A stretch of 63,216 nt of DNA, counting the filler, from Sphacelaria rigidula (Eukaryota): the NCBI GenBank assembly GCA_964200075.2. It is 6 parts of 6 records of this genome, joined end to end, with 100 filler letters (N's around TTAATTAATTAA, not from the genome) between each part and the next. Parts side by side here need not be neighbours in the genome. Positions count along the whole stretch, not along the records: positions 31,661 to 42,112 come from CAXNAA020006464.1; 5 more parts are not named here. One strand, 5' to 3'. The number at the start of each line of letters is the position of its first letter. The stretch's first letter is position 1. The translations under genes were made by a program, and so were the position numbers. This document shows positions 1,335-52,764 of the stretch, piece after piece. The notes beneath the pieces were generated by a model. That model had not been told where the DNA came from and did no database searches. It saw only the letters and a list, made by a program, of their open reading frames with translations.

Positions 1335-2851
1335 CTACTCCCGCACGTCTTCAAGGCTTGGCATCACCCCCGGAGACTGTTCCACTTGAGCGTTCACCGC
1401 CTGATAGCCGCTGACCAAACGGACTGTGTCCCTCTTCGGCACCGCGATCGCCGCACTCGCCCACGCAGCCTGAATATTCCTAACCAACAAACCGAATGCC
1501 ACCCAAACTGCGATGCATGAAGCAAGCCACACGGTCTTCACTGGGTCGGGCCGGCAAAACTTGGCCTTCACAGCCTCCTTCATTGGCCCCACGCGCGCTG
1601 GCGGATCACCACGCAGCGCACGACGAAATGTATCTACGCGACGAGCCGAATTATCGCGCAGACAATGTGCGCCACCGGCGTTCAGGCCCTTCTGCTCGGC
1701 CTGATGCACGCTATCCTCAAGCGCACGTTCTCTTGCACCTCTCTCCTCTGCTGGGTCCATGAACATATCAGGCCCCCGATCGACCAAGCGCTCTACCGCT
1801 TCATCTGCAGGAGCCTCCTCCTCACTGGCGCTCTGGAATGATCGTATGGATACGATCACACGCCCTACAGCAAGGTAACTGGGGTTTTCCACGCCGGTTT
1901 GCACCGGCACAGCACGCGGACGTAACTTCTCCAACGCCAGCGGGTACAAATCAATCCCGAGCTCCTTCATCGTCGCCATCCCGAATAGAACACGTTTTCC
2001 CTACCGGGCATGACAGTGAAAGTAATGGGCTGCAACTCCACAGTCCCCCACGGCGTACGCACGCTGACAGTAACCGGCACCGTTTTATGTGTAACCGTCA
2101 CGGGAGCACCCGTGGCGGTCTGCGCTGTTTGCGGTCCGTTTTCGGACGGAATCTGAAGCTGAGCGCCGCTAAACTGTGAAGATATTTGCTCTAGCAACCC
2201 CACACCGATCGACGTGAGTGCGGACCCAGAATCCAGAATAACGCGGGCCATCAACGAACCTACGAAATCAGGCAAGGAAAAATTTGCGCGTAAGCATTCA
2301 GCCTTGCGAGCGACAGGTACCACGCCTGCCGAAGAACCCTGTTCGGTCCCAAGAGCCACCTGACGCCAGGGCTGCCCTCCAGCCCTTGACATCGATAGCT
2401 GCGAATCTTCGGTCCAACCAGACCAAGTCGCCGAATATGTGGACGGCGCTGATACAGCCGTCGCAGCAGTAGGAGATATATCAGACACGGATCCTGCCTG
2501 GCCGAGGGATTGCGAACCATTCGCTCCAGCACTCCCCACCGAAGTATTTGTATTTCCCACGTACACTGTCCGCCCCGACACGGACGAACCATAAGATCCA
2601 GAGCCACCACCTGATGACGTCGTGGAAGAAACAGCAGCGGAGGAACCACCATCCACTGCCGATTGCGCGCTACCGCGGCCGCCGCGGCCGCGTCCCTGAT
2701 TGGCACGGCCCCGTCCACCGTGACGACCGACCCGAGATCCTGGTAAGCCTCGTGCATTACCCTGTGCAGCGCCTTGAGCGCGAGGCTTGGGGCAGTCCTT
2801 GATTATATGTCCGGTGTCGCCGCAGTTGTAACACGCGCGAGTGGACGACAC
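1335..2851 (-). pseudogene. pol: Gag zinc knuckle, aspartic protease and RT N-terminus (frameshifted)
   Basis: ORF 1967-2851 has CX2CX4HX4C and ILDSGS; ORF 1335-1979 has WASAAIAVPKRDTVRLVSGYQAVNAQVE, then RT breaks off. Confidence 0.85.
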
Positions 2852-3555
2852 TGTTTCTGTTTCTGTTGCTGTTTGCGGCGCATACCACCTGCACTTATTG
2901 CAGAGTCGCGCCGACCATGTGCTTCAATGAACTTCCATTGGTCGGCGGCATCAAAAATCTTGTTGAACACCACCGTCGGGTTGTTTTTCCAGCCGTTAAC
3001 ATACGTTAGTATACTTCTGACATACGCCTTGAATTCTGAGAGCAAAATCCCGTCCGCCAAAGCTATGGAAACCGACTCGGCCGGGCCTGGCAACCAACTC
3101 CTGTCCTCCGCACGGTACATGGCTTGCACCGTCAGGTTCTCTGCGAAATACTTTCCCATCGCTGGAGTGACCATCATCGCACGATCCTTTACAGATTTCC
3201 CACTGCTTTGTGGCATAATAAGAAGTATACGCAGGTCTGCTGCAGCCCGCGTAGCGTCATGCTTTTCGCCGGTTGTGGTGTACCCGGCATGCTTCTTCAC
3301 AGAGTCAAGCATTTCGTCGGGGGTCATAGCCCGACCGTCCTTGTACATGTCTTCGAAGCAGCGGCGAATGTATGTGAGGATGAGTTGACTTATGCTTACC
3401 CTCTCATGCCCCACATTAGCGAGATTCAAACGCTGTATGTAGTCAAGATATGTGGCATAGAAATTCCTTGACGCCTCCTCCGTTCACACTTCGCCATACG
3501 TTGGCGGCTCTAGTGATTCACCTGACACCCGCGGCGCTGCCGCCGCTTGAGCCAT
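2803..3555 (-). pseudogene. gag: Gag (copy 1, disrupted)
   Basis: Begins MAQAAAAPR at the LTR edge; near-identical to 4578-5186; leads into the CCHC knuckle. Confidence 0.8.
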
Positions 3556-10454: not shown

Positions 10455-10554
10455 NNNNNNNNNNNNNNNNNNNNNNNNNNNNNNNNNNNNNNNNNNNNTT
10501 AATTAATTAANNNNNNNNNNNNNNNNNNNNNNNNNNNNNNNNNNNNNNNNNNNN
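10455..10554. other. Artificial contig spacer (N44-TTAATTAATTAA-N44); also at 21008-21107, 31561-31660, 42113-42212 and 52665-52764
   Basis: Identical 100-nt spacer with stops in all six frames; segment lengths 10454, 10453, 10453, 10452, 10452, 10452. Confidence 0.99.
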
Positions 10555-20947: not shown

Positions 20948-21911
20948 ACCCCTCGCCCACCCCATCACCTCTTGCCACCCCCACCCCCCCCCCCTCCCCC
21001 CACCCCCNNNNNNNNNNNNNNNNNNNNNNNNNNNNNNNNNNNNNNNNNNNNTTAATTAATTAANNNNNNNNNNNNNNNNNNNNNNNNNNNNNNNNNNNNN
21101 NNNNNNNCTTTCGGGCCGAACAATCTTAGCAGGATGCAGCTCACCCTTCATGCGACTAGCCGAACACACCACGGCTTCGCGCTTGGTGATTGAGTGCGAA
21201 CCTGGTCCGGCAAAAACCCGTTTTACTCCGTCCCGGCCTTGTAAGGATGCGAGGTCAATGGTCTGATAGCTATGGCATGCATGATCATGAGCACACCCCT
21301 CCCCTCAACTGGCAAAGGGGATCGCCATACTACGTAATGTTCAAATGGTGAGACACCCATGAGGCAGTGTGTAAGGTATGACTGTCTCCGGAAGTGGCGG
21401 TACCAGAAAATGAAGCAGTACATTGGAGGCTGCCATTTATATGCAAGGTACAATTAGTAGGCTTGGGGCCGAACAACCTTAGCAGGATGCAGCTCACCCT
21501 TCATGCGATTCGCCGAACACATCACAGCGCTTCGCGCTTGGTGAGTGATTACGAGCCTGGTCCGGCGAAAACTCGGTGTGGTCCGTCCCGGCTTTGTAGG
21601 GGCGCGAGATCAATTGGCTTCATTTTTCATCAAAATTGGCGTGGTCGAGGCCTTCCGGTTCACGACAAAACCTATTCGCGGTAAAACCCCCCGACAATCA
21701 CGACAGCCTTGTTCATTCTGCTTACAAAAAGAAGAGCAGATTTGCCAAGGGTGCACGAAAAAGATTCCCCCGCACCTACGTACCCCCCCTTCCCCTGGAG
21801 AGCCGGAAAAAACATGTATATTTTATCTCCTCTGCTTCCCCCATCTCAATTCGTGTGTACAATGCCCGTTACAGGGGTGGCAAATCTCTCCGTTCAGGCA
21901 TCACAGACCCT

Positions 21912-31452: not shown

Positions 31453-32337
31453 CCGGGGGGGGGGGCGTACTCGTTCATTTGTTGCTTGCCTTAGTCGTTT
31501 GACCATTGACCACGCATCCCTTTCGAGACGGAGCACCGTTCCTACTCCTAATAGAGACACNNNNNNNNNNNNNNNNNNNNNNNNNNNNNNNNNNNNNNNN
31601 NNNNTTAATTAATTAANNNNNNNNNNNNNNNNNNNNNNNNNNNNNNNNNNNNNNNNNNNNGGAGTGAAAGGCCGCCTACGCCGCTGTAATGGCTGCCTGT
31701 ATCTTGGGCGAAGCTGTATGGTAACAAAGCCGCGGCTGGTGCGCCCACATATACCGAAAGGTGGAGACCGGCGTCCAGAATTCATGCGACGACAACACAC
31801 ACAGCACACTCGACGTTGCGCAGTACAATTTCCACGTCGTGTTCGTACTGTCTGTAGAATTTGTTTGTCCACGGTGGGGTACATTTTCCATATATTGTGC
31901 AGGGGCAAGATCTGGGCGAATTGCAGGTGAGGCAATCGCCGAAATATGCACCTGCAAGATCTGCTCCAGTGCACTGTAAGTTGACATCGCTAGAAGGACG
32001 CTACCATAACCATCTTGCCGGCTGCCAGACTGTCACAGACTGTCAGGACGTAGGATCCGCTAGCATTGCGACTGTCTGTACGGGGGTGTTACCCTCTTGT
32101 CAGATACGTTTTGGAGTATGATACTCGATGTAGATCATCCTTGTACATGGGCACCAAACGCTGAGAGTTCTCACTCAAGACTTCGATTCGGAGGATGACA
32201 CTTGATGGTCAGCAGCAACTGCTGTTTGTCGAGGTCCCCCTTGGAGCAAGATGCGTTTGGTGTCCGTTTGACGAAGTTATCCCCCAAAAAACGAAATCGA
32301 CAGGGGTTTTAGACTGGAAAAATATAGCAAAAAGAAA

Positions 32338-32432
32338 CACCGCAAGAATCCGATCGCAAGAATCCTGACGCAAAAAAACTATCGCAAGAATCAGGTCGCA
32401 AGAATCCTGACGCAAAAACGGAGTCGCAAAAA
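32338..32432 (+). repeat. Short tandem CGCAAGAATC-rich duplication (~43-bp unit x2)
   Basis: tcgcaagaatcctgacgcaaaaa repeated. Confidence 0.7.
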
Positions 32433-33071
32433 ACAAGTTGGGCGATTTTTTGCCCGCAGCAGAAACCAGCTTCACTTCGTGAAATTGGAATATATAAATT
32501 CGTATAGGGCATTCGGAACATAACCAAGTACACACGCTACGCTCTCTTGTCATAACCTCTGAGGACACCAAAAATAAGGACACTCCCCGCTTAAAAGTCA
32601 CCTTTTATACAAAAGCAACGTGCCCCGCAGGTAGCAAAGATACAGGGGGACTTCAGAATACAAACCGCGGAAACCCCTGAAAAAGGAAAGCCTCGCCGCA
32701 CGCGTACGTCAGCGTGCCGCATATGTTGTGTACGAAAAGCAAAAAAGTATGAGACTAACGCAAAGGAGTCATGTTTCTGTAGACTAATCAAAAGACAAGA
32801 GTTTTGCAAAAGCCACATAGATTCACGAAGGTAAAAAAACAACAAACAAAATATCTTCGTTGTAGCCTGTATTATAGTTAGCACCATGACGTGGTTTTCC
32901 CGGGACGTTGTGTGCCATTCCTCTTGTCCGACTGATGCCCCTCTCCAGGACACTTGATTTGACCCATAGCACACCTCCATTAACCCCGGGGATGGTAAAT
33001 TATGGCCCCCTGAATCGTAGTGACACCTTCCCGGGATAAGGACACCTTTGAACAAGAAAACGTGTGTGTTC

Positions 33072-35870
33072 TTATAGCGGGGTCGACTGTATCCTCTTTA
33101 TGCGCATTTTCACCATACGGGTACAACAATCGTGCAACTCTCCCTTTGCGAAAGGTTTCGAGAGGAAGAAATCGGCCCCAGCATCCATCAGGTCATTCCT
33201 CGAGGAGTCCGTGAGATCCGCGGTGAACCCCGTTATGGGGACTTTCGGTAAGCCATTCTCCGACTCGTAATTTCTTATGTTTCTTATGCACTCCACACCA
33301 GATGCGACGGGCATGTGATGATCCATAAGCACACCATCGATGGTATCGTTCGACTCGCACATGGACTTCACCAGTTCGTACCCCAGGAGGCCGTTCTCTG
33401 CCGTCCTGATCACCGTGGAGTCTCCCATACATGTCGTTATCTGTTTCGTGATGAGTTTCAGGTTTATCTTGTTGTCGTCTACTATCATGAAGGTGGTCAC
33501 ATCGGGTACCGATTCCATTCCATCCTCTTCCGAGTTTCCCGTGCTGATGTTTGTCGTCGATGCCAACAGACGGCCGGCTCTTTCCATAGGTATAATAACC
33601 ATGATATGTGTCCCCCTTTTTACCGTGGAAGCCAGTGCCATTTGGCCCTTCATGGCCTTTACGTTTAGTAGACATATGTGAAGACCCAGACCAGTGCCTT
33701 GATAGGTCTTCTTCACCCCGATCGAGACCTGTGTGTAAGGGTTGAAGAGAATCACCAGATCCTTCCTCGAGATTCCGCACCCGGTGTCTTGAATAGATAG
33801 ACACACCCATGTACATCCACGCGTTTCCCTGTCGGAGACTCCCTCTTCTACCACGTGGACGGCTTCGTAGGGACCAAAACATTCTTTTCGGTATGTCAGC
33901 GCCGAACCTAGACCCTCGAAGGACCTAGATATCACCCTGACGGATCCTCCCCTCTCCGTGAATTTTATCGCATTCTGGCATAGGTTGTCCATGATGTGTT
34001 TTATCTTGAGAGGATCTCCGTAGACCAACAGGTTCTGCCCCAGTCCACCGTCTTCTACGAGTAACACGCCATTATTCGAGCCGAACGACCGCATGGTCTC
34101 TATCGTGGAATCCAGAACCTGGCTAATCTTGATGACAGACATATCAGCCTCGTTCTTGTGGTTTCCCTTAGCGATGTTGAGTATACTGTCTAGCGTGCGC
34201 ATCATCGTGTTTCCGCAGTCAAGAGCCATCTTCGTGAAGCCCCTTCTCTCGTCAGGGCTCATGTTGACGTTGTCGTTCAGGATGTGTAGCGCGCTCATCA
34301 CTCCGTGGAAAGGGGTCCTGAGTTCATGTGACATGTGGGCGAAGAGCTCGTAGTCCTCTTGGGCCCTCCTCATTATGCTGTTGTGCTCGGAGTTGTGATC
34401 CTCCCTAACCTGCATGAAGTCATCCAACATGTCGATCAAATCTCTGTCGAAGCTCGTCCAAGATCTAGGCATCTCCTTCCCCTCTTGGATGTACTTTTCG
34501 AACGATTTCCTCGGACAAGGCAGACCGTCCTCCTCCACGGAGGGATGTAACTCGTCCGGGTTCCCTCCCCAGGAGACGTCTTTACAGTCCGGCGCACGCG
34601 TTAGAATTACCGCATTTCGTCCTCTTTTAACGCAGGCGTAGGACCGTAACGGGTTCTCGACGACACCCAGGTGTACTCCAGGGAGAGACCCTCCCTTCAC
34701 ATACTTTATCGACCAATCCATATCGCCCCCGCTGTAGCACGTCCCCGCCTCCTCGTCCACGACAGCTAACGATTCCGCGTCGAAGATGGACAGTATATCC
34801 TGTAGGTTGTCCCTAAAACAATTGCTCAGGGGGTCCCTCTTTTTGTCGGCGCTCATCACCTCCTCTAACGTTTTCCCGCGTAGATGTCGCGTGTTTCGGT
34901 TGTGACTCTCGATCTGCGACGCCGCCACCGATGCTAGTCGCTGGATCATGATGCGTCGTTCCGGGGAGGGCCACGTGGGCTTGCCGTATGCGTGGTAGGC
35001 CACAAGACCCCATAGGTTGCCGTCGACTACTATCGCATTAGACATCGACGACACCACGCCCATCCCTTTAAGGTACATATTGTGCGGACTGACGCACCCC
35101 CTCAGGAAACACTTTGTAAGGTCCACCCCTTGATCGCCGACGAGGATACACGGGTCCAGTTCGACGTTAGATATCAATCGGAAGTGGTTCGACAGGTAAA
35201 CCGCCCTGGCATTCGCGGGTATGTCCCCAGCTGGGAATCTCAGCCCTTTGTACCTGGACCGGATACTGGTCCGTACTTTCTCATGTATGACTTCTCCCGA
35301 GTTGTCTTCCAAGAACCTGTACACCATACCTCGGTCGTAGTCGGAATCCTTCATGATGGAGTCGCAGAGTGTGGAAACTACCATGTCGATGCTCTGACAT
35401 GACGTAATCCTTTTCGCGATCTCTCCCGTTTTCAGCATGATGGCATTGGCTTCGGACTGAATGTTAGCATCGATGGGTTCGAGTTCTATCAATAACGTCC
35501 CGGACGGTGACGACGAAACGGTCATGTGTACGTCGGAAACCATGCCATCGCCGGAGTGAAGAAGACCTGCCATCCTCTGACATCTATACATGTAACCCTT
35601 GGTCTGGTTTGTGTTGGTGTCACTCGCCATCACCACGGAACGCATTGTGGATTCCATCGTTTCGACGACAGTGGGTTCGAAGAGGACGTGTAACGATTTC
35701 CCCAGAACCTCTTGGATGGGCAATTGCTTGACCCAGGACCATTTGTGTAGGTTGTTCGAAACGGAAACGATGCTTAAGTCGGACATTTTCACGGCCACAA
35801 CAAGACCGATGTCCTGTATGTACCCGATGCGTAACACGTCCTGTTCCTCGCATCTTTTAAGAGAAGCCAT
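33072..35870 (-). CDS. Phytochrome-like hybrid sensor histidine kinase (PAS-GAF-PHY-HisKA-HATPase_c-REC), intronless, phaeovirus/brown-algal type
   Basis: 932-aa uninterrupted ORF. N-terminal C7 in CEEQDVLRIGYIQ (BphP CxxEPIHIPGxIQ); GAF YDRGMVYRF, PAGDIP(213-218), LRGCVSPH263NMYL, LWGLVAYH; PHY WGGNP and PRKSF; H-box MSH515ELRTP; N-box NLCQNAIKFT; G1 DTGCGI; G2 GTGLGL; REC VDD, LMD850HHMP, TA, K905P. Confidence 0.96.
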   Translation of the reverse strand: MASLKRCEEQDVLRIGYIQDIGLVVAVKMSDLSIVSVSNNLHKWSWVKQLPIQEVLGKSLHVLFEPTVVETMESTMRSVVMASDTNTNQTKGYMYRCQRMAGLLHSGDGMVSDVHMTVSSSPSGTLLIELEPIDANIQSEANAIMLKTGEIAKRITSCQSIDMVVSTLCDSIMKDSDYDRGMVYRFLEDNSGEVIHEKVRTSIRSRYKGLRFPAGDIPANARAVYLSNHFRLISNVELDPCILVGDQGVDLTKCFLRGCVSPHNMYLKGMGVVSSMSNAIVVDGNLWGLVAYHAYGKPTWPSPERRIMIQRLASVAASQIESHNRNTRHLRGKTLEEVMSADKKRDPLSNCFRDNLQDILSIFDAESLAVVDEEAGTCYSGGDMDWSIKYVKGGSLPGVHLGVVENPLRSYACVKRGRNAVILTRAPDCKDVSWGGNPDELHPSVEEDGLPCPRKSFEKYIQEGKEMPRSWTSFDRDLIDMLDDFMQVREDHNSEHNSIMRRAQEDYELFAHMSHELRTPFHGVMSALHILNDNVNMSPDERRGFTKMALDCGNTMMRTLDSILNIAKGNHKNEADMSVIKISQVLDSTIETMRSFGSNNGVLLVEDGGLGQNLLVYGDPLKIKHIMDNLCQNAIKFTERGGSVRVISRSFEGLGSALTYRKECFGPYEAVHVVEEGVSDRETRGCTWVCLSIQDTGCGISRKDLVILFNPYTQVSIGVKKTYQGTGLGLHICLLNVKAMKGQMALASTVKRGTHIMVIIPMERAGRLLASTTNISTGNSEEDGMESVPDVTTFMIVDDNKINLKLITKQITTCMGDSTVIRTAENGLLGYELVKSMCESNDTIDGVLMDHHMPVASGVECIRNIRNYESENGLPKVPITGFTADLTDSSRNDLMDAGADFFLSKPFAKGELHDCCTRMVKMRIKRIQSTPL

Positions 35871-36922
35871 GATGCCGATATCGGATATATATGTATCTAG
35901 TGATACTCTCGTCCGCTGTTGAAGAGCTGAGAATCGCGGGATGCTGACAGGCGGGCGTCGGGCTGGAGACGAGAGTAGGCTCGCGACGCGTTAGGTGTCG
36001 ACTCGGATAGAATGGTCACGCACCGTCTCCGAGGGCGCGAGAAGTGCTTCCTTACCCTTGTGTACCCCAGTCAGCAGCAGGTAGTTTTTCGAGATGTCCC
36101 GCTCAGCTGGTGAGCAATAGGCAGAATTCCTGTGCTTGGATACCTTACGCCCGCTGATGAAGCTACGCGCTTAGTAAGTCATGGGCTGAAGTCCAGCTAC
36201 CGTCCTTTCCTTCTTCCCCTTTCCGAAGATTGCTGTGACTTGCTGCGCAAATGGGCACAGGGAAACGCATGTCGTCGATCAAAATCGAGATTGGTGGCTG
36301 TTGAGCACATTCAGATCTGAGACACTCACCAAGCCCAATACCGTACTGCTCCGTCTAAATGTAAGAATCTGCGACAGCTATTAAGGGTGAAATTCCGCGA
36401 CTCGCCAGCAGTGCTGCATGAAACGGCGGGATTCGCGTTTCGGAAAACTGTTCAACGAGTTTTACGGTGTATGTGTTGGAGCGGGGGACATTTAAGTCGT
36501 GTAATGCGCATTTTGCAACCACGCACCAGGAGCAGATCCATGACCGGTCCATGGAAATGAACCCTGTATTTCTAGGGAGGGTTCTGCTGCTGATGGACCA
36601 TGCGTGTGAGAATAAATCTGCCACTGCGGGCATGCGTGTGCAAAGTACGGCATAGAAGGAAGTGCACAAGTGCTGCTGGTGGCATGTGTCCAAGGCGAAA
36701 TATTCCTTTGCTCGAAAATTAAGGCGTGACAATCGATCAAATCAATCAATCGAGAAAAAACACTTGCTGTAGTACGTCGTAGCGCAGGTCGGTGGCTGGT
36801 ACAATCCCGCTCAGTTGTGTGGGAGGGGTTAGGCCCTATTGAACAGACAAGCTGGGCACATTGTCGACGTATATTCGACGCTGGTGTCTCACTTTCCCTG
36901 TCCCATGAGCTTGCGCGGTTAA

Positions 36923-37218
36923 CAACGTTTTAGTGAGATTGAGAGTGGAGCGCTGATTGAGAGTGACTTTGATCATTCGCTTTGACTTGGCCAATTTTTT
37001 ATTCCGTGTGTGATTTTCTTTGTCTCCATCACTGGCGTGTGCTTACATCTACACGTCGACATCCCAACCAAGGATATCAAGGGCCACAGTGGCGAGCTAC
37101 TACAAAAAGTATATCGGGCCTCGCGGAGGGGCATTTCGATACTGAAACGATTCGTTCATTAATCGATTGTTTTTCACTCTCAATCGTATCCTCTACTCTC
37201 AATCTCACGAAAACATTG
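36923..37218 (+). mobile_element. MITE family M1
   Basis: TIRs caacgttttagtgagattgagagt / actctcaatctcacgaaaacattg. Confidence 0.8.
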
Positions 37219-38255
37219 CTAGTTGCGGTCATAGTGCACGAACGATCTCGAAGCCGTCGACGAATGTTTTTTGGGAATTTTGAATGTCTTTCGGGCTGAT
37301 CCGAATACTTCTTATCTTCTCCCACGGAGTTGACCAATACACCCTCGAGAATGACCAGAAGCCGAAGTAGGCGGCGAGGGTTTGTATGTCCTCGCGTTGT
37401 AAATATTTCGAAGAAGCTGCAATTTTTTTCGCCCCGTTTCAAACTGCTTCTCCTCTCATTCACTTTAGTCGTTGTCCGGGAAGGCCCAGGCCTCTGTGCT
37501 CCCATCCTCAGGACTACCCACAACCCGATAGGAAGGTGCCGACAACAATGAAAGATACCGCTACCTCCTTGCACATATTGGAGATTGTGCTCTTTGGCAC
37601 CGAGCAATAATGTCTGTATATTTCTCCTCCATTTTATACCTTACGCCAAACGTTTCTGGGTGCAATAGATCCGAACGTACGGTGAGCGTCCATGCAAACG
37701 TGACTGCACATGCTTAGCGGACAAGCAAGAATACTCAAACTGCTGCGAGTATAGAGTTGCAGGCTTGAGGCATTGGTCTCCCACATCGAACACGCCAAGG
37801 GTGGGAGGTAGCGGAGACGATGGAAACGTCACGATATGTAGCATTCCAGAGAGTGCCACAGAGAAATAAGAACGATAGTGTTCACCCAGGGGGGCGTCAG
37901 GACCGGAATTGTGGCACCCCCGTTCCCAACCAATTTGTTTTTGGTCGTGGTTGTTTTGGAAAAGGCTGTTTCATATAGCGTGTGGCCAATGTGCGTCACG
38001 TTGGTCGCGGAGTTCATCTAGAGTCAAACGTTAAGCAGGTGTGGCTGAGTGCATCCGAATCGGTGTTTACGTGTGCCGATAACAGTACCACCGGAGGGGT
38101 AATGCGGGCGAGGAAGCTCCTCGACCGTGTCTTTTTTGTGTCTTCCTCCCGCTATTCCTAAGTGGTCGAGAGATCGGCATCAGGTTACCACCACACACAC
38201 CACTTGCCAGCCCTCCCCTCGGCGCAAGAACGGCAGGCGGTCAGTTGTACAGTTC

Positions 38256-38294
<39 letters not shown>

Positions 38295-39206
38295 GAGATA
38301 TGCGGCTTGGCTTGCCGCATCTTGACTGATGTATTCGTGTCTTCTCTCGCGCGCTGACCAGTGCAACGCTCGATTCTTTCCTGCCTCTCGTGTTGGACAG
38401 GACGTGCCCCTGTGCGCTAGAGAACACGCCATCGAAAAGCAGGGCGGTGTTCCTGTCACCGCTACCGTTATCACGTGCACACGTGCGAGCAATGACAGTT
38501 GCGCGAAGATTCAATGGCATGTGAGGGGTGCTATTGTAAGCATCGTGTAGAAGTCGCCGCAAGGGCAGTGGTACAGGTTACGATTCCTAGGGCCGAAGCT
38601 CATGATAATAGGGTGGCGCGTGCACTACGCCAAGTTGACAGGGAGCTTGAGTGGGCCGGACCTCCACATTGCCTTGAGCGAAGCTTGCGGACGCTCGAGG
38701 TGCCTACCCCACATGTCTGCCGTGAGGCAGTCTAGCCGAGCCTCCGGGTAATCGGCACATGAATGCGCTCGCGGGAAAATTGTTGGCTCAGATTTTTTCC
38801 CTTCTTCAAGGGAATAAATGATGAAATGGTCAGGGCAATGTAGCATGGAACTCACGACCACAGAGACCTTCTCGGCATGCTCGGTGAAACAAGATACACG
38901 TAGCTGCGGCTTAGCGGCTGGCGTGGCCCACATGGAGGCTGGCATACTGTATGCTACCAGCTGCTTGGCGCTGTTTTTGACGTATTTAATGCGCGTTGTT
39001 GGCAGGGATGGTGCCTTTAATTTTTCGATCATCCTTTACTCTGCCGAGGCTACCACAAGCTTTTGCCTGACGCGGATATGATTCCACCGCGAGCAAAGGG
39101 CGTTTCCGTGACATGTGGACTACTTGCCCATTTGTGGCTCATGTCGCCGAGTGCTGATCAAACAAGTCTTGCCTAAGATATCGTAGTTTGGAGCTGAACC
39201 AGGGGA

Positions 39207-40572
39207 TTCTTGAAATTGCTTTTGTAGTTGGCGATTTCAAGCAACTTTTTGCATGGCATCGCTAATCCCAGTGGGCGTTTGATACCAAAAAACGGGAGAT
39301 ACTTGGCATCCGCTCTATATTCCGAAATAAACCCATCTCTACGCTCAATATTGAACGACTTAGGGGCTGATCGGTCTTCGGGGGTCCTGCGACTCCTCAG
39401 CTCCAGGTTTTGATACTTGAAACGTTTTGCTCAATTGGAGCAATCCCGATCTTTCTCGTGAAATAATGAAAATACGTTTGTTTCATTTCTCCCTCCTCAT
39501 TGCGCTACAGCAAAAAGACTGTGTTTTATGGCGTTTGAAAAAACTGTGCTTTTTTACCTCTGACGGTCGATAATACCCCCCTGATGAACGAGTTCCTTAC
39601 TCTCTTTCTGGCAGGGAGCCACACTCAACCCTCGTCCTGACTTTCGCAAGAACGAAGGCTTCCGCTGGGTTAATATACCACTTCTCCGAAATGGTGCTGC
39701 AGACAAGCGTTCACATCCGCCCAACGGGCTAGTGCTACTCGTCGAGACCCCCGCGTCCAAATGTATATCATACCGACTCCGTATTACCCTGATAACACCA
39801 ACTTGAGGATTGTGTCGTGAGCACCGCCTGTTTCTTTTCCCGATTTCGTTCGACGCTAGGACTTTCGAGTGCTGAGGATAAACAACACTATACGGGAATA
39901 TTAAGGAAAGTATCCAACTACGAAAATTGCCCAACCGAGCTCTGAATAGCACAGGGGGCATGAACTACACCCAATCGATCTCGTGAATATTTTGGTCCGC
40001 CTCGTGTTGCTTTTTCTCCATTCATCGCGCTAGAGCGAAAAATAATATTTGTTAGGACCAACAACAGTCAATCACACTCCCTGTCAATCTTTCAGTAGGG
40101 TATCTTCCTGAATGTTATCGTGTAGTATATCCTTAGCACTCGACGTCCTAGTGTGGAACGATATCGGGGGATAAGCCGGTAGTGCTGACGACACAATCCT
40201 CAAGTTCGTGTCATCGGGGTGAGACGGAGTAAGGATCTCATGTATCAGGGGATATTATCGACCGTCACTGGTCCAAAAACCTTCGGCTCCAGCCCAATGA
40301 GTAGGGAGAATTTGGGATGATCAGTTTTGCTTCAATCGTGCAAAAATACTCAGAAGTCAGAACCCGGGGCCAGGGTAGTCGCAGGATCCCGAGGACCGGT
40401 CAGCTCGGAAGTATTTCAGCATTGGATAAGGAGATGAGTTTTGATTCAGAATATGGAGCAGATGCCTAGTATCTCCCGATTGCTAAACTTTGGGATAGAA
40501 TGTTCAATGGGATGAGCGATGGCACGCGAAAACACTCTTGAAAATCGTCGACTACAAAATGATTACAAAAAA
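39207..40572. mobile_element. Foldback element with long degenerate inverted arms
   Basis: 39215-39450 vs 40320-40560 and 39555-39915 vs 40098-40275 are reverse complements (cttgaggattgtgtcgt/acgacacaatcctcaag; cggtcgataata/tattatcgaccg). Confidence 0.8.
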
Positions 40573-41417
40573 GAAACAGTCAGCTCGAAACTACTGCAGC
40601 CGAGAGAGATTCCCATTTTGGTTTTTCGTTTTTTTTCTTAGCAAGCTTCATACAAGCAAGGAAAAGGACGTCGGGTGTGTGTCACGCGTAACGAGAAGGC
40701 ACGGCTCTATTGACACAAACCTACTACCAGACAAGTATCGTGACATACGTGCGTGATGCTCAGGTAGCCGTGTTGTCGCGACAGGCTCCTTGGGTGGTAC
40801 TTCGATCCTGCGCCGCCCGAGAGGTCATGCTCACAGCAGCAACTTGGTTTTTTGCTTATAGCGCATGCTGTTGTTCCCCTCTCTACGGCCCACACAATTT
40901 ATTGTCGCTGACGGTACGCAGCTGGTGATGTGTTGAAGAAGGGTGTATAGAAATTCAATTGAAGCTGTTTTGATACCCTTAAAACGGGTGCCAGAAAAAC
41001 GCCAAGAGAACGCACTTTGCTCAGCTCCCCAGAAGCATGAAGGAAAACGACGCCACCGTCTTTGTCGAGCGCCTACTAGTGAAGCCGGTGACAGACAAGA
41101 TCGTTTTCCATTAATCAATTCCTCCATTTTCACCCCCTGTGACAGGTCTCCAGCAAAGAAATTGCGATCCCGCAACATGGCAAGTGCGCTTTGGTTCTCC
41201 TGAATATATTCCCCTATATAACTAGTACGCTTCGGGCCGAACAATCCTACAAGAATGTATCTCACCCTCCATGCGACTCGCCGAACACATCACGGCGCTT
41301 CGCGCTTGGTAATTACGAGCCTGATCAGGCGGTTACCAGGCGAACTCTATCCCGATTTTGAAGGGATGCGAGGCCAATGGTTTATGACTGCGGCGTTCAA
41401 GATCATCATGAGTTCAC

Positions 41418-41770
41418 CGGCCGGTCGCCCTGGTGGCTCTGTTGGTCACTTCAAATCCTTCTGACGGTTGGGTGGTGGGTTTGAACGGTGGTGAAGTCAC
41501 CTGATCTAGGATTCTTTCTCACACCATGCCCAACGGTGGAGAACGACTATGTCGTGGGTACACAAAATTCGACTTAGCGGTCGACAAGGAAAAGTGACTG
41601 CTGAACCCCTCTCGCGATAAAAAAACAAAGGCAAGCACCGAAGAATGAAGGCGGAGTACTAAAACAAGATGACAAAAAATCCTGTGTTGCCCTTCCTCCT
41701 GTGTGACCACGGCTGATGCGCCCATATATACCGAAAGGTGTAGACTGGCGTTCAGAACAGATGGAATGAC
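41418..41770 (+). mobile_element. SINE family A
   Basis: gccggtcgccc head plus body. Confidence 0.8.
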
Positions 41771-43090
41771 ACCATGCACAACATCACCACCACCCCCCCC
41801 TAGTCAATGGTCTTATAACTATGGCATGCATGATCATGAGTACACCGCCCCCCACCATCTCCTCCCCCCGCCATACTGTTTCGATCGATGGTGCAAAATT
41901 TCCATGATGCTGTTTGTAAAATAAAAATCGATGCCTCCCTGGTTGTTGCTCCGTCTGGAAAGGGATGCGTGGTCAGTGGTCAAACGACTGAGGAAGGCAT
42001 AAAATGAGTACGCCACCCCCCCCCCTGGTTCACTGGTTAGACACCCATGAGGCAGTGTATAAGCCGTGGCTGTCTCTGGAAGTGGCGATACCACAGAATA
42101 AAGCAACTCATTNNNNNNNNNNNNNNNNNNNNNNNNNNNNNNNNNNNNNNNNNNNNTTAATTAATTAANNNNNNNNNNNNNNNNNNNNNNNNNNNNNNNN
42201 NNNNNNNNNNNNTCTCAGACACGTGGAATGGCGCAAAAGTTGCGTGTATACCCCTTGGACCAGCGGTCAACTTCTTTCTTCCTTTTGGGCAATCAGGCCG
42301 AAGAAATCGTGGATTCGGCGATTCGTTGTTGTGATGATTCGTCCTAACCGACAACGATTCCCGGCAGTTCGCTCGCTGTCAGAACGTAACCGATACCACT
42401 CAACGAACAGGACGATGCGCGTGCGTTAGTAGTGCTGTCAAGGGTCTGTCGAGAGATTTTTTTCGTACACGGAGCCCCCCCCCCCCTCCCCTCCCGGAGG
42501 ACATTTTTTTCCAAAAATTGTCATGATTTTCAGTACATATTTTTACTTTGTGTGTGTATTTTTTTGGATATATAGAGATCAACAAACACTGACAAATACC
42601 GAAAGGTCTGGCGGGCTTTGCGAGGTTCGTATATTTGCTTCTGCTCTTTGCCCGCCCTGTCTCGATGACCTCGTTTGCCAACAACGCTCACAGACATCAA
42701 TGTACAATACACGAGCGCACGGTAGCGACAGTCTGTAGCCAAAGTAGTAACATCATCTCACGCCTCGCCAAATTTGCCCGGACTACTACTAGTGGTAGGT
42801 AGTCGAGGCACACGACACGGAACATGAATCCATGAATGTAATCATGGTAGGTGATTACCTTGGAGGGGCGGTGTGTCCGTCATGTCAGCGGTTTCCATGC
42901 CAAGGATCTCGGTATACACGACAGCTGATCGCATCCGCCAACGCTTCGGCAATATACTAGGGGACAGCAGGCTGGGTGTCCCCCCCCTCAAAAACTCGAA
43001 TTTTTTATCTTGGGGGCTACGTGTCCCGAAATATTTTTTCGACAGACCCTTGGTGCAGCACAGTTATTTAACAGATCAAGTTTAATATTA

Positions 43091-44309: not shown

Positions 44310-46652
44310 AAACACATGTGGGTAGGGATAAGAGGGATTATGGGAAACCAGGCAAGGAACATAGACAAGGGATAGCCACACTCCGGGTACGGAACGGTAA
44401 AATGGTCAGCAGTTCGAAGGGGAAGGGGGAAGTGGTAGTCAAGCACTGCCGTAAACTAGGAACAGCAAAAACTAACACGAAGTTCGACACGGAATTCGAA
44501 AAAGAGATCAACGAGTGGGCAGAAACAAATGTAGAGACGTCAAAACGGGAGGATAGTGGCTTGAAAGAATTGCATAGAGAATATAGTAGAGATGAAGTAA
44601 ATAAACTAAAGAACAAAAAGGCAGCAGGGGTAGACGGGATGGGGAATTAATTTCTGAAGCATGAGGGGGAAGGAATGGGTACCATGATGGCTGTGCTGTA
44701 TAACTGGATATAGGAAAACGAGTACACACCCAAGAGGTGGAGAGAAGGAGTAATTGTCAATTTTTTCAGAAAAGGAGGTTAGGCTGACCCAGGGAACTAT
44801 AGAAGGGTAACGCTACTGAGCACGGTAGGGAAAACATTCTGTAAGGTTCTGAACGATGGAGTAGGAACGGTGCTAGAAAAGGACAAAAAAATCAGCGAGG
44901 GACAAGCAGTTTTCAGACCAAACCGTAGTTGCGTAGATCATGTGTACACACTGGGTAACATTATTCAGGGTAAGAAAGACGCCGGGTTGACAACGTACTG
45001 TTTCTTTCTGGACGTGCAAAAGGCTTATAACACAGTATGGAGAAACGGGCTGTGGGAGAATTTGTAGGAAACTGGGATCAGAGGAAAGATGTGGAGAATG
45101 GTAAAGAAGATGACAGAATATGCCAAAAGTGCCATGATGCTAGACAGGGAAATATTGAATTATTTTGATATTTTACAAGGAGTTGTACAAGGATGTACGT
45201 TATCACCCACTTTATTCAAGGTATTCATCAATGACTTGATACTAGCAATAGAAGCAGAAAATCAAGGAGTCAAGGTGGGTGAAGATGTGATAACAGGTTT
45301 GATGTTCGCAGATGATTTTGTGGTAATTTCAGATACACCAGAAGGATTGCAACAGCAGATACACAAGGCACTAGAATACACCAGGAAATGGAGAGTGACA
45401 GCGAGTGTCAACAAATGCGCGGTATTCGTCTGTAACGAAGATAAGAAAAACCCGGTAAAATTCAAGTGGGGAGAAGAGGAACTGCCGATTGTAGACCAGT
45501 ATACATACCTTGAAGATATCTCAAAACATTGTTCTTGGGATGCACACATAAACAAAGCAAGAGAAAAGGGTAAGGCACAGATAGGTAGGTTGGACGTGAT
45601 TCTCAGAGACTCGCACCTAGACACTAGGATTCAGAGATGTTTCCTGGTGAGCGTGATCATACCAAAGCTGGAATATGCAGGAGAAGTATGGGAGATGAAC
45701 GTGAAAATGGTGAAGAAGTTAGAAACAGTACAGATAGTAGCAGCAAAGAAGATGCTTGGATGCTCGAAAACGACGAGTAATACAGCACTGAGAGAAGAGT
45801 TGGGAATGTACTCACTTGAAAAAAACAGAGACATGAGGAAATTAAGATGACAATATAGCTTGAAGAGCATGCAGAGAAAAAGACTGCCAGCTATACTGTA
45901 GTTGATAGGGCTGTATGGAAGAAAAATACGAAAGGGCATGCTATAAGGTGCGATAGAGAAGTCGAGAAAGTATGAAAGGAGATAGGCGGAAACATAGACG
46001 GAAAACTGTCCATAGGTGAAGGCGCGGGGTATAAGACAAGAGTAAGAGACATGATAGAAATAAGGAGGAAATGAGCGCTCAGACGTGAGGTAGACGAGGA
46101 AGAACACCTGAAGATATACGGGGGGTTGAGAGAGGGGATCGGAATGAAAATATATCTGCATGACCCCATGGACGCGGCGAAAACGTTGAAACTGCGACCT
46201 CGGGTGGGGGACCTGGACCTGCCAAAAAGAAGGAAGAAATATACCAGTAGTCGGGAGGAGGAGGAAGTAGATGGACAGAACTGCCCCTGTGGCGAAGGAA
46301 TAGAGAGCAGAAGTCATATAGTGGCAGAATATAAGCTATACAAGGAGGAATGGGACATGCTAGAGGGGGAAATGCGGGACGTGAACGAAGGGAGCATGAT
46401 ATCATTTTATGCATCAGACAGCAGCGAGAAAACGATGGCTATACTAGGAGAATGATGGTGGCCACAGACAGCGAAACAGGACGGGGATAAGATATGTAAA
46501 AGGTTTATGTGTAATGTATAGAGCGGAGCCGGAATGTTGAAGGTGTCTCTATGAGGAGTAGGAACGATGCTCTGCCTCGAAAGGGATGCGTGGTCAATGG
46601 TCAAACGACTAAGGCAAACAACAAATGAATACCCCCCCCCCCCCCCCCCCCC
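44310..46652 (+). mobile_element. 5'-truncated non-LTR retrotransposon (LINE): RT pseudogene, Cys/His C-terminus, oligo(C) end
   Basis: KAAGVDG, DPGNYRRVTLLS, QAVFRPNRSCVD, FLDVQKAYNTV, GVVQGCTLSPTLF, MFADD, YTYL; several stops; ends ...CAAATGAATA-C21. Confidence 0.95.
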
Positions 46653-52090: not shown

Positions 52091-52764
52091 GAAAATGCAA
52101 TCGCAGAATAGGCTCAAGTGATACCATGGGTATGGATCACACGTCATGATTCGAAAGTGGATGATTGCGATCCCGACCTTGCACCATAGTGTTTTCGGAC
52201 TCCATACACTTCGTAAGCATAATGAAAATCGTAGCACCAAAGCCCTTCGGTTTGAGGTGATCACGCACTGGGCATCCCTAGGAGAGGATGACGTTGCTCA
52301 ATAATATTTGAGTGTGCCAACGGAGAAAAATAATGGGGTTTCTGCCCTACTACCACCAGGCGATCCTTAAAACGGGAACGGGATTTTTATACGGGAGCAA
52401 ACTAGGATCGAAATTGTGTATGATATTGAACCTAGTACCCGACAAAGTAGCCTTGAAGGTAACCCTTAACGTGTTTCAGGGTCAACAGCATTTACAGTTT
52501 TGACCTCTGTTCGTTTTCATAATAGGAGAACCTCGTCCCCATTTTCAGGATCGCCTGTTTACTTTCCCCTCATTCTCGACATCCTCTAAGGCGCGCGCGG
52601 AGGGGGGGGGAGTGTACTCATGATCATGCATGCCATAGTCATCAGACCATTGACCTCGCATCCCNNNNNNNNNNNNNNNNNNNNNNNNNNNNNNNNNNNN
52701 NNNNNNNNTTAATTAATTAANNNNNNNNNNNNNNNNNNNNNNNNNNNNNNNNNNNNNNNNNNNN

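What the first reader, a model, noticed from the sequence alone, without database searches (positions are those of the whole stretch)
33072..35870. Intact intronless virus-type phytochrome hybrid kinase alone in host repeat DNA
Seen: a 2.8-kb ORF with no introns, stops or frameshifts, with chromophore, kinase and receiver residues intact (C7, D216, H263, PRxSF, H515, D850, K905). Everything else on this contig is decayed TE or host SINE/LINE sequence, and the host gene on contig 2 has 75-181-nt exons split by ~2.5-3.4-kb introns. Established: phaeoviruses (EsV-1, FsV) encode intronless phytochrome-like hybrid kinases and integrate into brown algal genomes, and brown algal phytochromes group with them. 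Inference: a virus-derived photoreceptor separated from its provirus (no other viral ORF recognisable in 10 kb). It is either under selection as a domesticated host light sensor or was inserted recently.
Basis: partly seen in the sequence, partly recalled or inferred. Interest (0 to 1): 0.8.

Follow-up and report, generated by a model that had tools for sequence, protein, structure and literature searches.

The report
Intronless virus-clade phytochrome kinase, brown alga
An intact, intron-free light-sensor kinase gene of the phytochrome lineage that brown algae share with their giant viruses sits alone between host repeats in a Sphacelaria-like seaweed, and it looks like a conserved resident gene rather than fresh viral debris, a situation already described for other brown algae.

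Summary
The ORF is real: 33072-35870 on the minus strand, 932 codons. It is the longest open frame in the 63-kb window, three times the next longest.

The nearest relative is an unnamed Sphacelaria rigidula protein at 88% identity. All other relatives are at most 38% identical. In a 40-row ML tree the pair falls in a clade (100/99) of brown-algal genome sequences plus the Feldmannia viruses FsV and FirrV-1. An AU test rejects placing it with the cellular phytochromes of Ishige, Tribonema and Chromulina (p 3e-7).

The rest of the 10.4-kb piece has no Pfam-recognisable ORF, viral or transposon. High-copy host repeats bracket a unique 4.2-kb unit.

Three results point to purifying selection at a shared locus:
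- Differences from the S. rigidula protein avoid conserved columns (p 8e-7).
- Both frames are open.
- Public runs carry the locus with its flanks.

Expression is hinted at, not shown. The direction of virus-host transfer is unresolved. Virus-related, intron-poor phytochromes are already published for Ectocarpus, so this is a new member of a known kind.

The parts
33072..35870 (-). Complete intronless CDS (932 codons plus stop) of a phytochrome-type hybrid histidine kinase (P0001)
35622..35852 (-). PAS_2 domain (aa 7-83). The candidate bilin-binding Cys7 lies at its start.
   Evidence: Pfam E 2e-6; C7 aligned to the N-terminal Cys of 8u4x
34911..35387 (-). GAF domain (aa 162-320) with the D216-I217-P218 motif and H263
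   Evidence: Pfam E 8.7e-9; invariant columns
34419..34622 (-). PHY domain, the part matched by Pfam (aa 417-484), with the tongue motifs W434-G-G436 and P453-R-K-S-F457
   Evidence: the model's photosensory module superposes on the Agp2 photosensory module at TM 0.80-0.81
34161..34349 (-). HisKA dimerisation and phospho-acceptor domain (aa 508-570) with H515 in SHELRTP
33582..34019 (-). HATPase_c catalytic domain (aa 618-763) with N629, D695-x-G-x-G699 and G727-T-G-L-G-L
33129..33488 (-). Receiver domain (aa 795-914) with D798/D799, D850, T883 and K905
35871..36216 (-). Upstream non-coding stretch carried by contigs of other runs, contiguous with the start codon. It holds an in-frame stop at 35988-35990. 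It is a possible 5' UTR.
   Evidence: (records 16, 24, 32)
32406..33071 (-). Downstream non-coding stretch carried by contigs of other runs, contiguous with the stop codon. It is a possible 3' UTR.
   Evidence: records 9, 10, 17, 25, 26
36920..37221 (.). High-copy MITE-like repeat with 31-nt terminal inverted repeats, about 1 kb upstream of the ATG. It marks the upstream edge of the unique unit.
   Evidence: very high summed depth in all four runs
31700..32427 (.). High-copy dispersed repeats plus a 14-nt minisatellite (32330-32427). They mark the downstream edge of the unique unit.

Best explanation
This is a resident nuclear gene of a brown alga close to Sphacelaria. It encodes a bacteriophytochrome-type photoreceptor fused to a hybrid histidine kinase.

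Lineage: it belongs to the phytochrome lineage that brown algae share with phaeoviruses. It has sat at this locus long enough to exist as diverged, still-open versions in related material, and it is kept by purifying selection.

Likely mechanism (inferred from family knowledge, not shown here):
1. A linear tetrapyrrole, most likely biliverdin, is bound through Cys7 and buried in the GAF pocket (D216-I-P, H263).
2. The chromophore photoconverts between two states.
3. The PHY tongue (WGG, PRKSF) refolds and passes the change down the helical spine to the HisKA/HATPase_c dimer.
4. This switches autophosphorylation of H515.
5. The phosphoryl group moves to D850 of the protein's own receiver and then to a separate phosphotransfer protein and response regulator.

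Origin: the gene is probably the surviving, domesticated piece of an old exchange with a phaeovirus. The direction of that exchange is not resolved.
For: Shown here:
- Intact 932-codon frame, three times longer than any other in the window.
- Six-domain architecture, all domains above Pfam cut-offs.
- Continuous alignment of residues 6-649 to the bacteriophytochrome kinase 8u4x, E 3e-36.
- All catalytic and chromophore motifs present.
- AF2 model with mean pLDDT 77.3. Its best PDB matches are bacteriophytochromes, and the Agp2 photosensory modules superpose at target TM 0.80-0.81 and 3.7 A.

Lineage:
- In the 40-row LG+C20 tree, window+S. rigidula has support 100/100.
- The pair sits inside a 10-row algal-genome group (98/98).
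- That group is sister to a 7-row group holding FsV and FirrV-1 (95/92). The joint clade has 100/99.
- The 69-row LG+G4 tree gives the same groups.
- The AU test rejects union with the Ishige/Tribonema/Chromulina clade (delta lnL 57.2, p 3.4e-7).

Residence and selection:
- An 88%-identical S. rigidula protein exists.
- Of 865 comparable columns, 100 differ. Only 2 of 116 columns that are at least 90% conserved differ, against 24 of 137 of the least conserved (Mann-Whitney p 8e-7).
- With 100 missense differences, neutral drift would give 4-5 stops, so P(none) is 0.007-0.017.
- Of the 36 variants listed inside the ORF, 14 are synonymous and 22 are not. The ORF has 628 synonymous and 2168 non-synonymous sites, so pN/pS is about 0.45.
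- GC3 is 0.66, against 0.49 GC in the flanks.
- 9 of 11 listed runs, from 3 studies, hold the stretch.
- Contigs of runs X5, X7 and X8 bridge the stop codon and the start codon into the same flanks.
- 17 of 19 changed codons in those runs equal the S. rigidula residue, so the two versions share one locus.

Host setting:
- High-copy repeats shared with other pieces bracket the unit.
- Other pieces carry Gag-knuckle and reverse-transcriptase remnants.
- 0 of 37 flank ORFs has a domain.

Hint of transcription:
- Contigs of three small runs, guessed by the tool to be RNA, cover parts of the ORF, about 350 nt upstream and about 660 nt downstream.
- Their depth relative to run X2 differs more than tenfold between repeat families. 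I read that as unlike a plain DNA library.
Against: - No run is on record as RNA, so expression is not shown.
- pN/pS of about 0.45 is only weakly below neutrality: the binomial p is 0.03-0.09 depending on the transition bias assumed. In addition, 26 further variants were not displayed by the tool.
- The piece is only 10.4 kb and ends in repeats, so a provirus further away cannot be excluded.
- The S. rigidula version carries Ser for the nearly invariant Pro of the DIP motif, and G215R. That could mean relaxed constraint in that version.
- The EsV-1 phytochrome and the labelled Ectocarpus PHL/HK genes could not be placed in the tree.
- Most clade members are unnamed, so it is unknown which 'algal-genome' rows are themselves integrated viruses.
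- The groups used in both AU tests were named after the tree had been seen.
- Chromophore binding, photoconversion and kinase activity are all inferred.
Confidence: 0.65

Rival explanations
1. The ORF is a piece of an integrated phaeovirus (an ordinary endogenous viral element). It would be transcriptionally silent and intact only because it arrived recently or by luck. The rest of the provirus would lie beyond the ends of this short piece or be too decayed to recognise.
For: - The gene is intronless and falls in the clade that holds the FsV and FirrV-1 kinases.
- Sphacelariales genomes are reported to hold integrated NCLDV sequences, most viral-region genes are monoexonic and silent, and most viral regions sit on short contigs (Denoeud et al. 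preprint, passages read).
- The piece ends in repeats after 10.4 kb.
- No run on record as RNA holds it.
Against: - 0 of 37 flank ORFs of 70 aa or more has any Pfam domain. No flank ORF exceeds 187 aa over 6.2 kb upstream and 1.4 kb downstream. I recall phaeovirus genomes as gene-dense, roughly one gene per kb.
- High-copy host repeats lie within 1 kb on each side.
- A diverged but open counterpart shares the locus and its flanks.
- The differences avoid conserved columns.
- The nearest named viral protein is only 33% identical.
- The AU test disfavours a direct union with the viral group (p 0.014).
Confidence: 0.15
2. The gene is an ordinary, vertically inherited brown-algal phytochrome that never passed through a virus. 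Phaeoviruses picked the gene up from their hosts, and intron loss or intron poverty is a feature of this host gene family.
For: - The algal-genome group (10 rows, 98/98) and the viral group (7 rows, 95/92) are reciprocal sisters, so the tree does not give a donor.
- Union of the window's pair with the viruses is disfavoured.
- The gene sits in host DNA and is conserved.
Against: - A second, clearly cellular brown-algal phytochrome (Ishige okamurae) groups with Tribonema and a chrysophyte in another clade. The virus-associated clade is therefore an extra lineage in brown algae.
- Path lengths inside the algal-genome group are 2.2 from the window to P0158 (printed) and about 2.4 to Ectocarpus sp. 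6 or Pylaiella (my sums branch lengths). These exceed the between-class distances in the cellular clade: Ishige-Tribonema about 1.6 and Ishige-Chromulina about 1.9, also my sums. I read this as faster evolution or several captures.
Confidence: 0.2
3. The ORF is bacterial or fungal contamination, or an assembly chimera.
For: Bacteriophytochrome-like architecture with an N-terminal Cys.
Against: - Bacterial and fungal sequences fall outside the 36-row eukaryote/virus clade (100/100 split from the outgroup). Their identity to the window protein is 21-26%.
- The ORF is flanked on the same piece by repeats shared with five other pieces of the window.
- Contigs from runs of 2 studies (X2; X5, X7, X8) bridge the ORF ends into these flanks.
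- An 88%-identical protein is filed under a brown alga.
Confidence: 0.01

Closest known systems
Ectocarpus phytochrome-like hybrid kinases (EsilPHL1; EsiliHK3/7/8/9 of Kabbara et al. 2018) and the Ectocarpales genome sequences found here (P0163 Ectocarpus sp. 6, P0013 Pylaiella, P0014, the P0010 cluster)
   Same: - Same PAS-GAF-PHY-HisKA-HATPase_c-REC architecture and about the same length.
- Same 10-row clade (98/98).
- Intron-free or intron-poor, and related to viral copies (PMC6324907, passages read).
   Different: - Only 31-35% identical.
- The Sphacelariales pair is its own deep branch (stem 0.80).
- Its H-box region reads FAHMSHELRTPFHGV, as in the diatom and chrysophyte rows, and not FFANMSHELRTPLHA, as in the Ectocarpales rows.
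- Which Ectocarpus named genes correspond to which rows could not be checked.
Phaeoviral hybrid sensor kinases: Feldmannia species virus (YP_002154771.1, P0167) and FirrV-1-H1 (P0183)
   Same: Same domain order and length (915 and 923 aa). They form the sister group within the joint 17-row clade (100/99).
   Different: - 33% and 29% identity.
- Encoded in virus genomes, whereas this gene lies in repeat-flanked host DNA.
- The AU test disfavours a direct sister relation (p 0.014).
Cellular ochrophyte phytochromes (Ishige okamurae AKT74329.1, Tribonema minus, Chromulina nebulosa) and diatom phytochromes (Seminavis robusta)
   Same: Same photosensory module and hybrid kinase output. Identity is 32-38%.
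   Different: They form separate clades. Union with the Ishige/Tribonema/Chromulina clade is rejected (p 3.4e-7). The Ishige and Tribonema proteins are longer (1165 and 1151 aa).
Bacteriophytochrome histidine kinases with solved structures (8u4x PsBphP, 9eut PaBphP, 8upk SaBphP2, Agp2 photosensory module 6g1y)
   Same: - N-terminal Cys, DIP/His pocket and PRxSF tongue.
- HisKA/HATPase_c output.
- Fold match at E 1e-28 to 1e-36, with target TM 0.80-0.81 for the photosensory module.
   Different: - About 20% identity.
- This protein carries its own receiver domain.
- It is encoded in a eukaryotic nuclear genome.

Membership tests
Phytochrome photosensory core (PAS-GAF-PHY) | The three domains in order | tested here: met
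   - Pfam PAS_2, GAF and PHY are all above their cut-offs. PHY is matched only over profile positions 105-172.
- The continuous alignment 6-649 to 8u4x and the fold match cover the whole module.
Phytochrome photosensory core (PAS-GAF-PHY) | Bilin-attachment Cys (N-terminal in the bacteriophytochrome type; GAF Cys in the plant/cyanobacterial type) | tested here: met
   C7 aligns to the N-terminal Cys of 8u4x and to Cys in relatives. There is no Cys next to H263 (S-P-H), so the protein is of the N-terminal-Cys type. Covalent binding itself was not tested.
Phytochrome photosensory core (PAS-GAF-PHY) | GAF pocket D-I-P motif and the conserved His | tested here: met
   D216, I217 and H263 are invariant. 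P218 is present here but is Ser in the S. rigidula protein.
Phytochrome photosensory core (PAS-GAF-PHY) | PHY tongue motifs W(G/A)G and PRxSF | tested here: met
   W434-G-G436 and P453-R-K-S-F457.
Phytochrome photosensory core (PAS-GAF-PHY) | Reversible photoconversion of a bound bilin | not testable with these tools
   Needs recombinant holoprotein and spectroscopy.
Hybrid histidine kinase (HisKA / HATPase_c / REC) | H-box His and the N, G1 and G2 boxes | tested here: met
   H515 in SHELRTP; N629; D695-T-G-C-G699; G727-T-G-L-G-L.
Hybrid histidine kinase (HisKA / HATPase_c / REC) | Receiver with acidic pocket, phospho-acceptor Asp, Thr and Lys | tested here: met
   D798/D799, D850, T883 and K905.
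Phaeovirus / brown-alga phytochrome lineage | Groups with phaeoviral and brown-algal genome copies, apart from cellular ochrophyte and diatom phytochromes | tested here: met
   The 17-row clade has support 100/99. The alternative placement is rejected at p 3.4e-7. The only named viruses in the tree are FsV and FirrV-1; EsV-1 was not recovered.
Phaeovirus / brown-alga phytochrome lineage | No or few introns | tested here: met
   A single open frame aligned end to end with relatives.
Endogenous viral element (integrated phaeovirus region) | Contiguous array of viral, monoexonic genes including NCLDV core genes | tested here: not met
   0 of 37 flank ORFs has a Pfam domain. Only 10.4 kb could be examined.
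Endogenous viral element (integrated phaeovirus region) | Transcriptional silence | tested here: inconclusive
   No run is on record as RNA. Contigs of three runs guessed to be RNA cover parts of the ORF.

The most novel reading that the evidence does not exclude
Sphacelariales captured a phytochrome from a phaeovirus lineage of their own, independently of the Ectocarpales captures, and turned it into an expressed host light sensor. That sensor now segregates as strongly diverged haplotypes, one of which has a natural DIP-to-DIS change in the chromophore pocket. It might be the receptor behind the long-day control of gametangium formation reported for Sphacelaria rigidula.
Probability: 0.2. 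Interest if true: 0.55.

Novelty: new member of a known kind. Interest (0 to 1): 0.3.

Why it matters
Brown algae are one of the few groups in which giant-virus integration is thought to have supplied working signalling genes to a multicellular host. Clean cases are hard to document.

This locus is compact and easy to test. It is a complete photoreceptor kinase of the virus-associated lineage. No viral neighbours are recognisable within the piece. It is embedded in host repeats and conserved between related strains or species, in an order (Sphacelariales) outside the well-studied Ectocarpales.

If expression and photochemistry were confirmed, the locus would extend the 'viral gift' model of histidine-kinase evolution to phytochromes of an early-branching brown-algal order. 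It would also provide a candidate receptor for red, far-red or green responses in seaweeds.

As it stands, the finding fits published patterns (Kabbara 2018; Denoeud 2024 preprint; the 2026 New Phytologist review). It is useful annotation, not a surprise.

Tried and rejected
Searches that found nothing useful:
- Viral-contig scans with P0001 and with alignment A1: 3 and 6 pattern matches, none confirmed as a relative.
- tblastn against the phage collection: 41 records, all matching only the kinase/receiver half at 25% identity or less. Uninformative.
- A named EsV-1 phytochrome: not recovered in three word-index searches or among the 30 representatives looked up by name. The tree therefore lacks it.
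- Window's own genome: none held. Earlier findings: not open.

Expression:
- No RNA holder is listed.
- In runs X5, X7 and X8 the unique flanks 36380-36847 and 37316-38251 have no cover, while X2 covers them. It could mean transcript ends, diverged flanks or thin sampling.

Flanks:
- Pfam on 37 flank ORFs: only two sub-threshold hits (E 0.055 and 0.064).
- No tRNA and no Rfam family, so a tRNA-derived SINE is not supported.

Ideas checked and dropped:
- Retroposed (processed) gene: I saw no poly(A) tract in the 770 nt after the stop (read by eye).
- Splice junction as the explanation for the loose end at 34834 with raised depth in X5, X7 and X8: there is no canonical AG or GT at that place. 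It remains unexplained.

Technical and literature limits:
- The 69-row tree under the mixture model did not finish. It was replaced by LG+G4 and by a 40-row mixture tree.
- Rockwell 2014 and Fortunato 2016 are not held. What I say about them comes from other papers' passages or from recall.
- Supplementary tables S19 and S20 of the Denoeud preprint, which may already list this gene or its S. rigidula counterpart as algal or viral, could not be seen.
Full report
**1. What is there**

The window is not one sequence. It is six pieces of about 10.45 kb joined by N44-TTAATTAATTAA-N44 spacers. The finding lies in the fourth piece, 31661-42112.

On the minus strand an ATG at 35870 opens a frame that runs to a TAA at 33072, 932 codons. 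The stop-to-stop frame is 972 codons. It is the longest of the 15 frames of 200 codons or more in the window. The next are 321 and 318 codons, so this is not a chance ORF.

Pfam finds six domains, all above their curated cut-offs:
- PAS_2, aa 7-83
- GAF, aa 162-320
- PHY, aa 417-484
- HisKA, aa 508-570
- HATPase_c, aa 618-763
- Response_reg, aa 795-914

Against the PDB, 155 distinct chains match. The best is the bacteriophytochrome kinase 8u4x, at E 3e-36 with one continuous alignment over residues 6-649.

An AlphaFold2 model built on a 22-row alignment has mean pLDDT 77.3. Its best Foldseek matches are full-length bacteriophytochromes. The Agp2 photosensory modules superpose at target TM 0.80-0.81 and 3.7 A.

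- C7, aligned to the N-terminal Cys of 8u4x
- D216-I-P and H263
- W434-G-G and P453-R-K-S-F457
- H515
- N629, D695xGxG and GTGLGL
- D798/D799, D850, T883 and K905

There is no Cys beside H263, so the protein is of the N-terminal-Cys (biliverdin) type. The ATG at 35870 has an in-frame stop 40 codons upstream.

The database's own gene model for this contig (P0002, 904 aa) starts at M29 and so omits C7. Relatives align from residue 5 onward, so M1 is the better start.

**2. Surroundings**

None of the 37 stop-to-stop ORFs of 70 aa or more in the flanks reaches a Pfam cut-off. The two weak hits have E 0.055 and 0.064. The longest flank ORF is 187 aa. There is no tRNA and no Rfam family.

A blastn of the six pieces against each other shows that this piece shares dispersed repeats with the others only at 31730-31810, 36920-37220 and 41200-42112.
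- The 36920-37221 element has 31-nt terminal inverted repeats, so it is MITE-like.
- A 14-nt minisatellite lies at 32330-32427.
- A nested foldback lies at 39290-40481.

In public runs the stretches 31700-32400 and 36848-37315 have summed depths hundreds to thousands of times those of the ORF. A unique unit of about 4.2 kb (about 32640-36850) therefore holds the gene and is bracketed by high-copy repeats.

Other pieces of the window carry a zinc-knuckle ORF (1970-2923) and a reverse-transcriptase ORF (45068-45847).

The 'SINE/LINE' label does not. About 4 kb upstream (37316-41200) is simply unannotatable.

**3. Relatives**

A word-index search gave 130 hits at E 0.001 or better among 7680 candidates.
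- The top hit other than the window's own model is an unnamed, partial protein of Sphacelaria rigidula (P0003, 912 aa, 88% identical).
- Everything else in that list is 35% identical or less.

The exhaustive search of 1.84 billion representatives found 3413 proteins at E 1e-30 or better. The best non-self hits are P0158 and P0159 (35%). No listed full-length hit exceeds 38% identity.

Names recovered for 30 representatives:
- phytochrome of Ishige okamurae
- Tribonema minus
- Chromulina nebulosa
- Ectocarpus sp. 6
- a cluster holding Ectocarpus fasciculatus
- two viral proteins: the hybrid sensor kinase of Feldmannia species virus (33%) and FirrV-1-H1 (29%)

Names from the search tables added Pylaiella littoralis, Ectocarpus sp. 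12 and the diatom Seminavis robusta. No protein named for EsV-1 came back from any search.

**4. Tree**

Row selection. From 78 candidates I kept the 69 of at least 700 aa; nine shorter rows were dropped. For the 40-row tree I chose a subset after seeing the 69-row tree and left out 29 rows to save time.

Both the 69-row LG+G4 tree and the careful 40-row LG+C20+F+G4 tree give the same picture. Supports below are from the 40-row tree:
- window + S. rigidula, 100/100
- a 10-row group of brown-algal genome sequences, 98/98
- sister to a 7-row group with FsV, FirrV-1 and five unnamed proteins, 95/92
- the joint clade, 100/99

The Ishige phytochrome groups elsewhere, with Tribonema and the chrysophyte (100/99). 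Diatoms form a third clade.

AU tests:
- Holding the window's pair with the Ishige/Tribonema/Chromulina clade costs 57.2 log-likelihood units (p-AU 3.4e-7).
- Holding it with the viral group costs 12.3 units (p-AU 0.014).
- Both groups were named after the tree had been seen.

So 'virus-type' is right in the sense of clade membership. The tree does not say who gave the gene to whom.

Path lengths:
- Window to P0158 is 2.2 (printed).
- Window to Ectocarpus sp. 6 or Pylaiella is about 2.4 (my sums branch lengths).
- These exceed the between-class distances in the cellular clade: Ishige-Tribonema about 1.6 and Ishige-Chromulina about 1.9 (also my sums).

I read this, as inference, as faster evolution or several separate captures.

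**5. Age and selection**

P0001 and P0003 differ at 100 of 865 comparable columns. Differences fall in 24 of 137 poorly conserved columns but in only 2 of 116 columns that are at least 90% conserved in the other 20 sequences (Mann-Whitney p 8e-7). Both exceptions, P218S and A221V, are changes in the S. rigidula protein.

Given 100 missense differences, neutral change would be expected to bring 4-5 stop codons, so P(none) is 0.007-0.017. GC3 is 0.66 against 0.49 GC in the flanks.

Nine of the 11 listed public runs, from three studies, hold the stretch. I laid four of them.
- Run X2 (depth about 50) covers all 30 bins.
- The small runs X5, X7 and X8 carry short low-depth contigs over parts of 32406-36216.
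- Some of those contigs bridge the stop codon (32840-33192) and the start codon (35838-36146) into the same flanks.

The tool listed 36 variants inside the ORF and withheld 26 further ones. Of the 36, 14 are synonymous and 22 are not, against 628 and 2168 sites, so pN/pS is about 0.45. That is only weakly below neutrality (p 0.03-0.09).

Seventeen of the 19 changed codons equal the residue of the S. rigidula protein. The window type and the S. rigidula type are therefore versions of one locus, mixed in mosaic fashion among the runs. This argues against a recent, private insertion.

**6. Expression**

No holder is on record as RNA. The tool only guesses that X5, X7 and X8 are RNA. What can be said is that their contigs cover parts of the ORF, about 350 nt upstream and about 660 nt downstream.

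Their depth relative to X2 varies more than tenfold between repeat families. One 234-nt bin inside the ORF (34742-34975) is raised in them but not in X2. I read both as unlike a plain DNA library, but this is a hint only. The lack of cover on the unique flanks is recorded under Tried and rejected, as the tool requires.

**7. Mechanism**

Inferred from the family:
1. A bilin is bound at C7 in the GAF pocket.
2. The chromophore photoconverts between two states.
3. The PHY tongue refolds.
4. The signal passes along the helical spine (helices 473-491, 495-533 and 539-570 in the model) to the kinase dimer.
5. H515 autophosphorylates and the phosphoryl group passes to D850.
6. It then passes to a separate phosphotransfer protein.

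The recombinant Ectocarpus phytochrome is reported to photoconvert between red and green light (Rockwell 2014, as cited in PMC11774855, passages read). The colour pair for this protein is unknown.

**8. What is known**

- Kabbara et al. 2018 (PMC6324907, passages read) showed that Ectocarpus phytochromes EsiliHK7/8/9 have zero or one intron. They cluster with EsiliHK3, which lies in an integrated virus. The authors proposed exchange with large DNA viruses.
- The Denoeud et al. preprint (10.1101/2024.02.19.579948, passages read) supports viral origin for several kinase classes. It reports integrated viruses in Sphacelariales.
- Li et al. 2015 (PMC4525182, passages read) placed the EsV-1 phytochrome nearer diatoms, without support.
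- A 2026 review (PMC13150293, passages read) states that phytochromes in macroalgal viruses suggest acquisition by viral infection.
- Searches for phytochrome together with Sphacelaria or phaeovirus found no paper that describes a Sphacelariales phytochrome gene. The preprint's supplementary tables, which I could not see, may list it.

**Verdict**

This is a new member of a known kind: a conserved, probably functional, virus-lineage phytochrome of a Sphacelaria-like brown alga.

Noticed in passing
window 10455-10554, 21008-21107, 31561-31660, 42113-42212, 52665-52764: The window is six pieces of about 10.45 kb joined by N44-TTAATTAATTAA-N44 spacers.
   Followed up: yes
window 35787-35870 (codons 1-28): The database gene model for this contig (P0002, 904 aa) starts at Met29 and so drops the conserved N-terminal Cys7, the likely chromophore attachment site. 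Relatives align from residue 5, so the longer model is the better one.
   Followed up: partly
window 35217-35228 (codons 215-218): The S. rigidula protein, and contigs of runs X5 and X7, carry G215R and P218S. This turns the nearly invariant D-I-P pocket motif into D-I-S, a natural variant that may alter chromophore chemistry.
   Followed up: partly
window 34742-34975, loose end at 34834: In runs X5, X7 and X8 this bin has summed depths of 55, 38 and 10, against depths of 0 to about 6 in the neighbouring bins. X2 is flat there. One X5 contig leaves the window sequence at 34834. No canonical splice signal lies there. Unexplained.
   Followed up: partly
window 33277-35605 (within the ORF): Runs of the coded organism A are mosaics relative to the window. 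Some segments are identical and others are about 3% different and S. rigidula-like. X2 also has two changes (Y292F, H293Y) found in neither version. This suggests strongly diverged haplotypes or recombination at this locus.
   Followed up: partly
window 36920-37221: A 302-bp element with 31-nt terminal inverted repeats. It is shared with pieces 1 and 3 and has very high summed depth in all runs: a MITE-like high-copy repeat.
   Followed up: partly
window 39290-40481: Nested inverted repeats (arms 39290-39331/40440-40481, 39550-39580/40248-40278 and 39776-39833/40173-40230) form a foldback of about 1.2 kb of unknown nature.
   Followed up: no
window 1970-2923 (-) and 45068-45847 (+): ORFs with a zf-CCHC zinc knuckle (E 1.9e-7) and an RVT_1 reverse transcriptase (E 1.1e-13). 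They are retroelement remnants in other pieces of the window.
   Followed up: no
window 32330-32427: Five overlapping copies of a 42-nt unit at 14-nt spacing, a minisatellite at the outer end of the downstream non-coding stretch.
   Followed up: no
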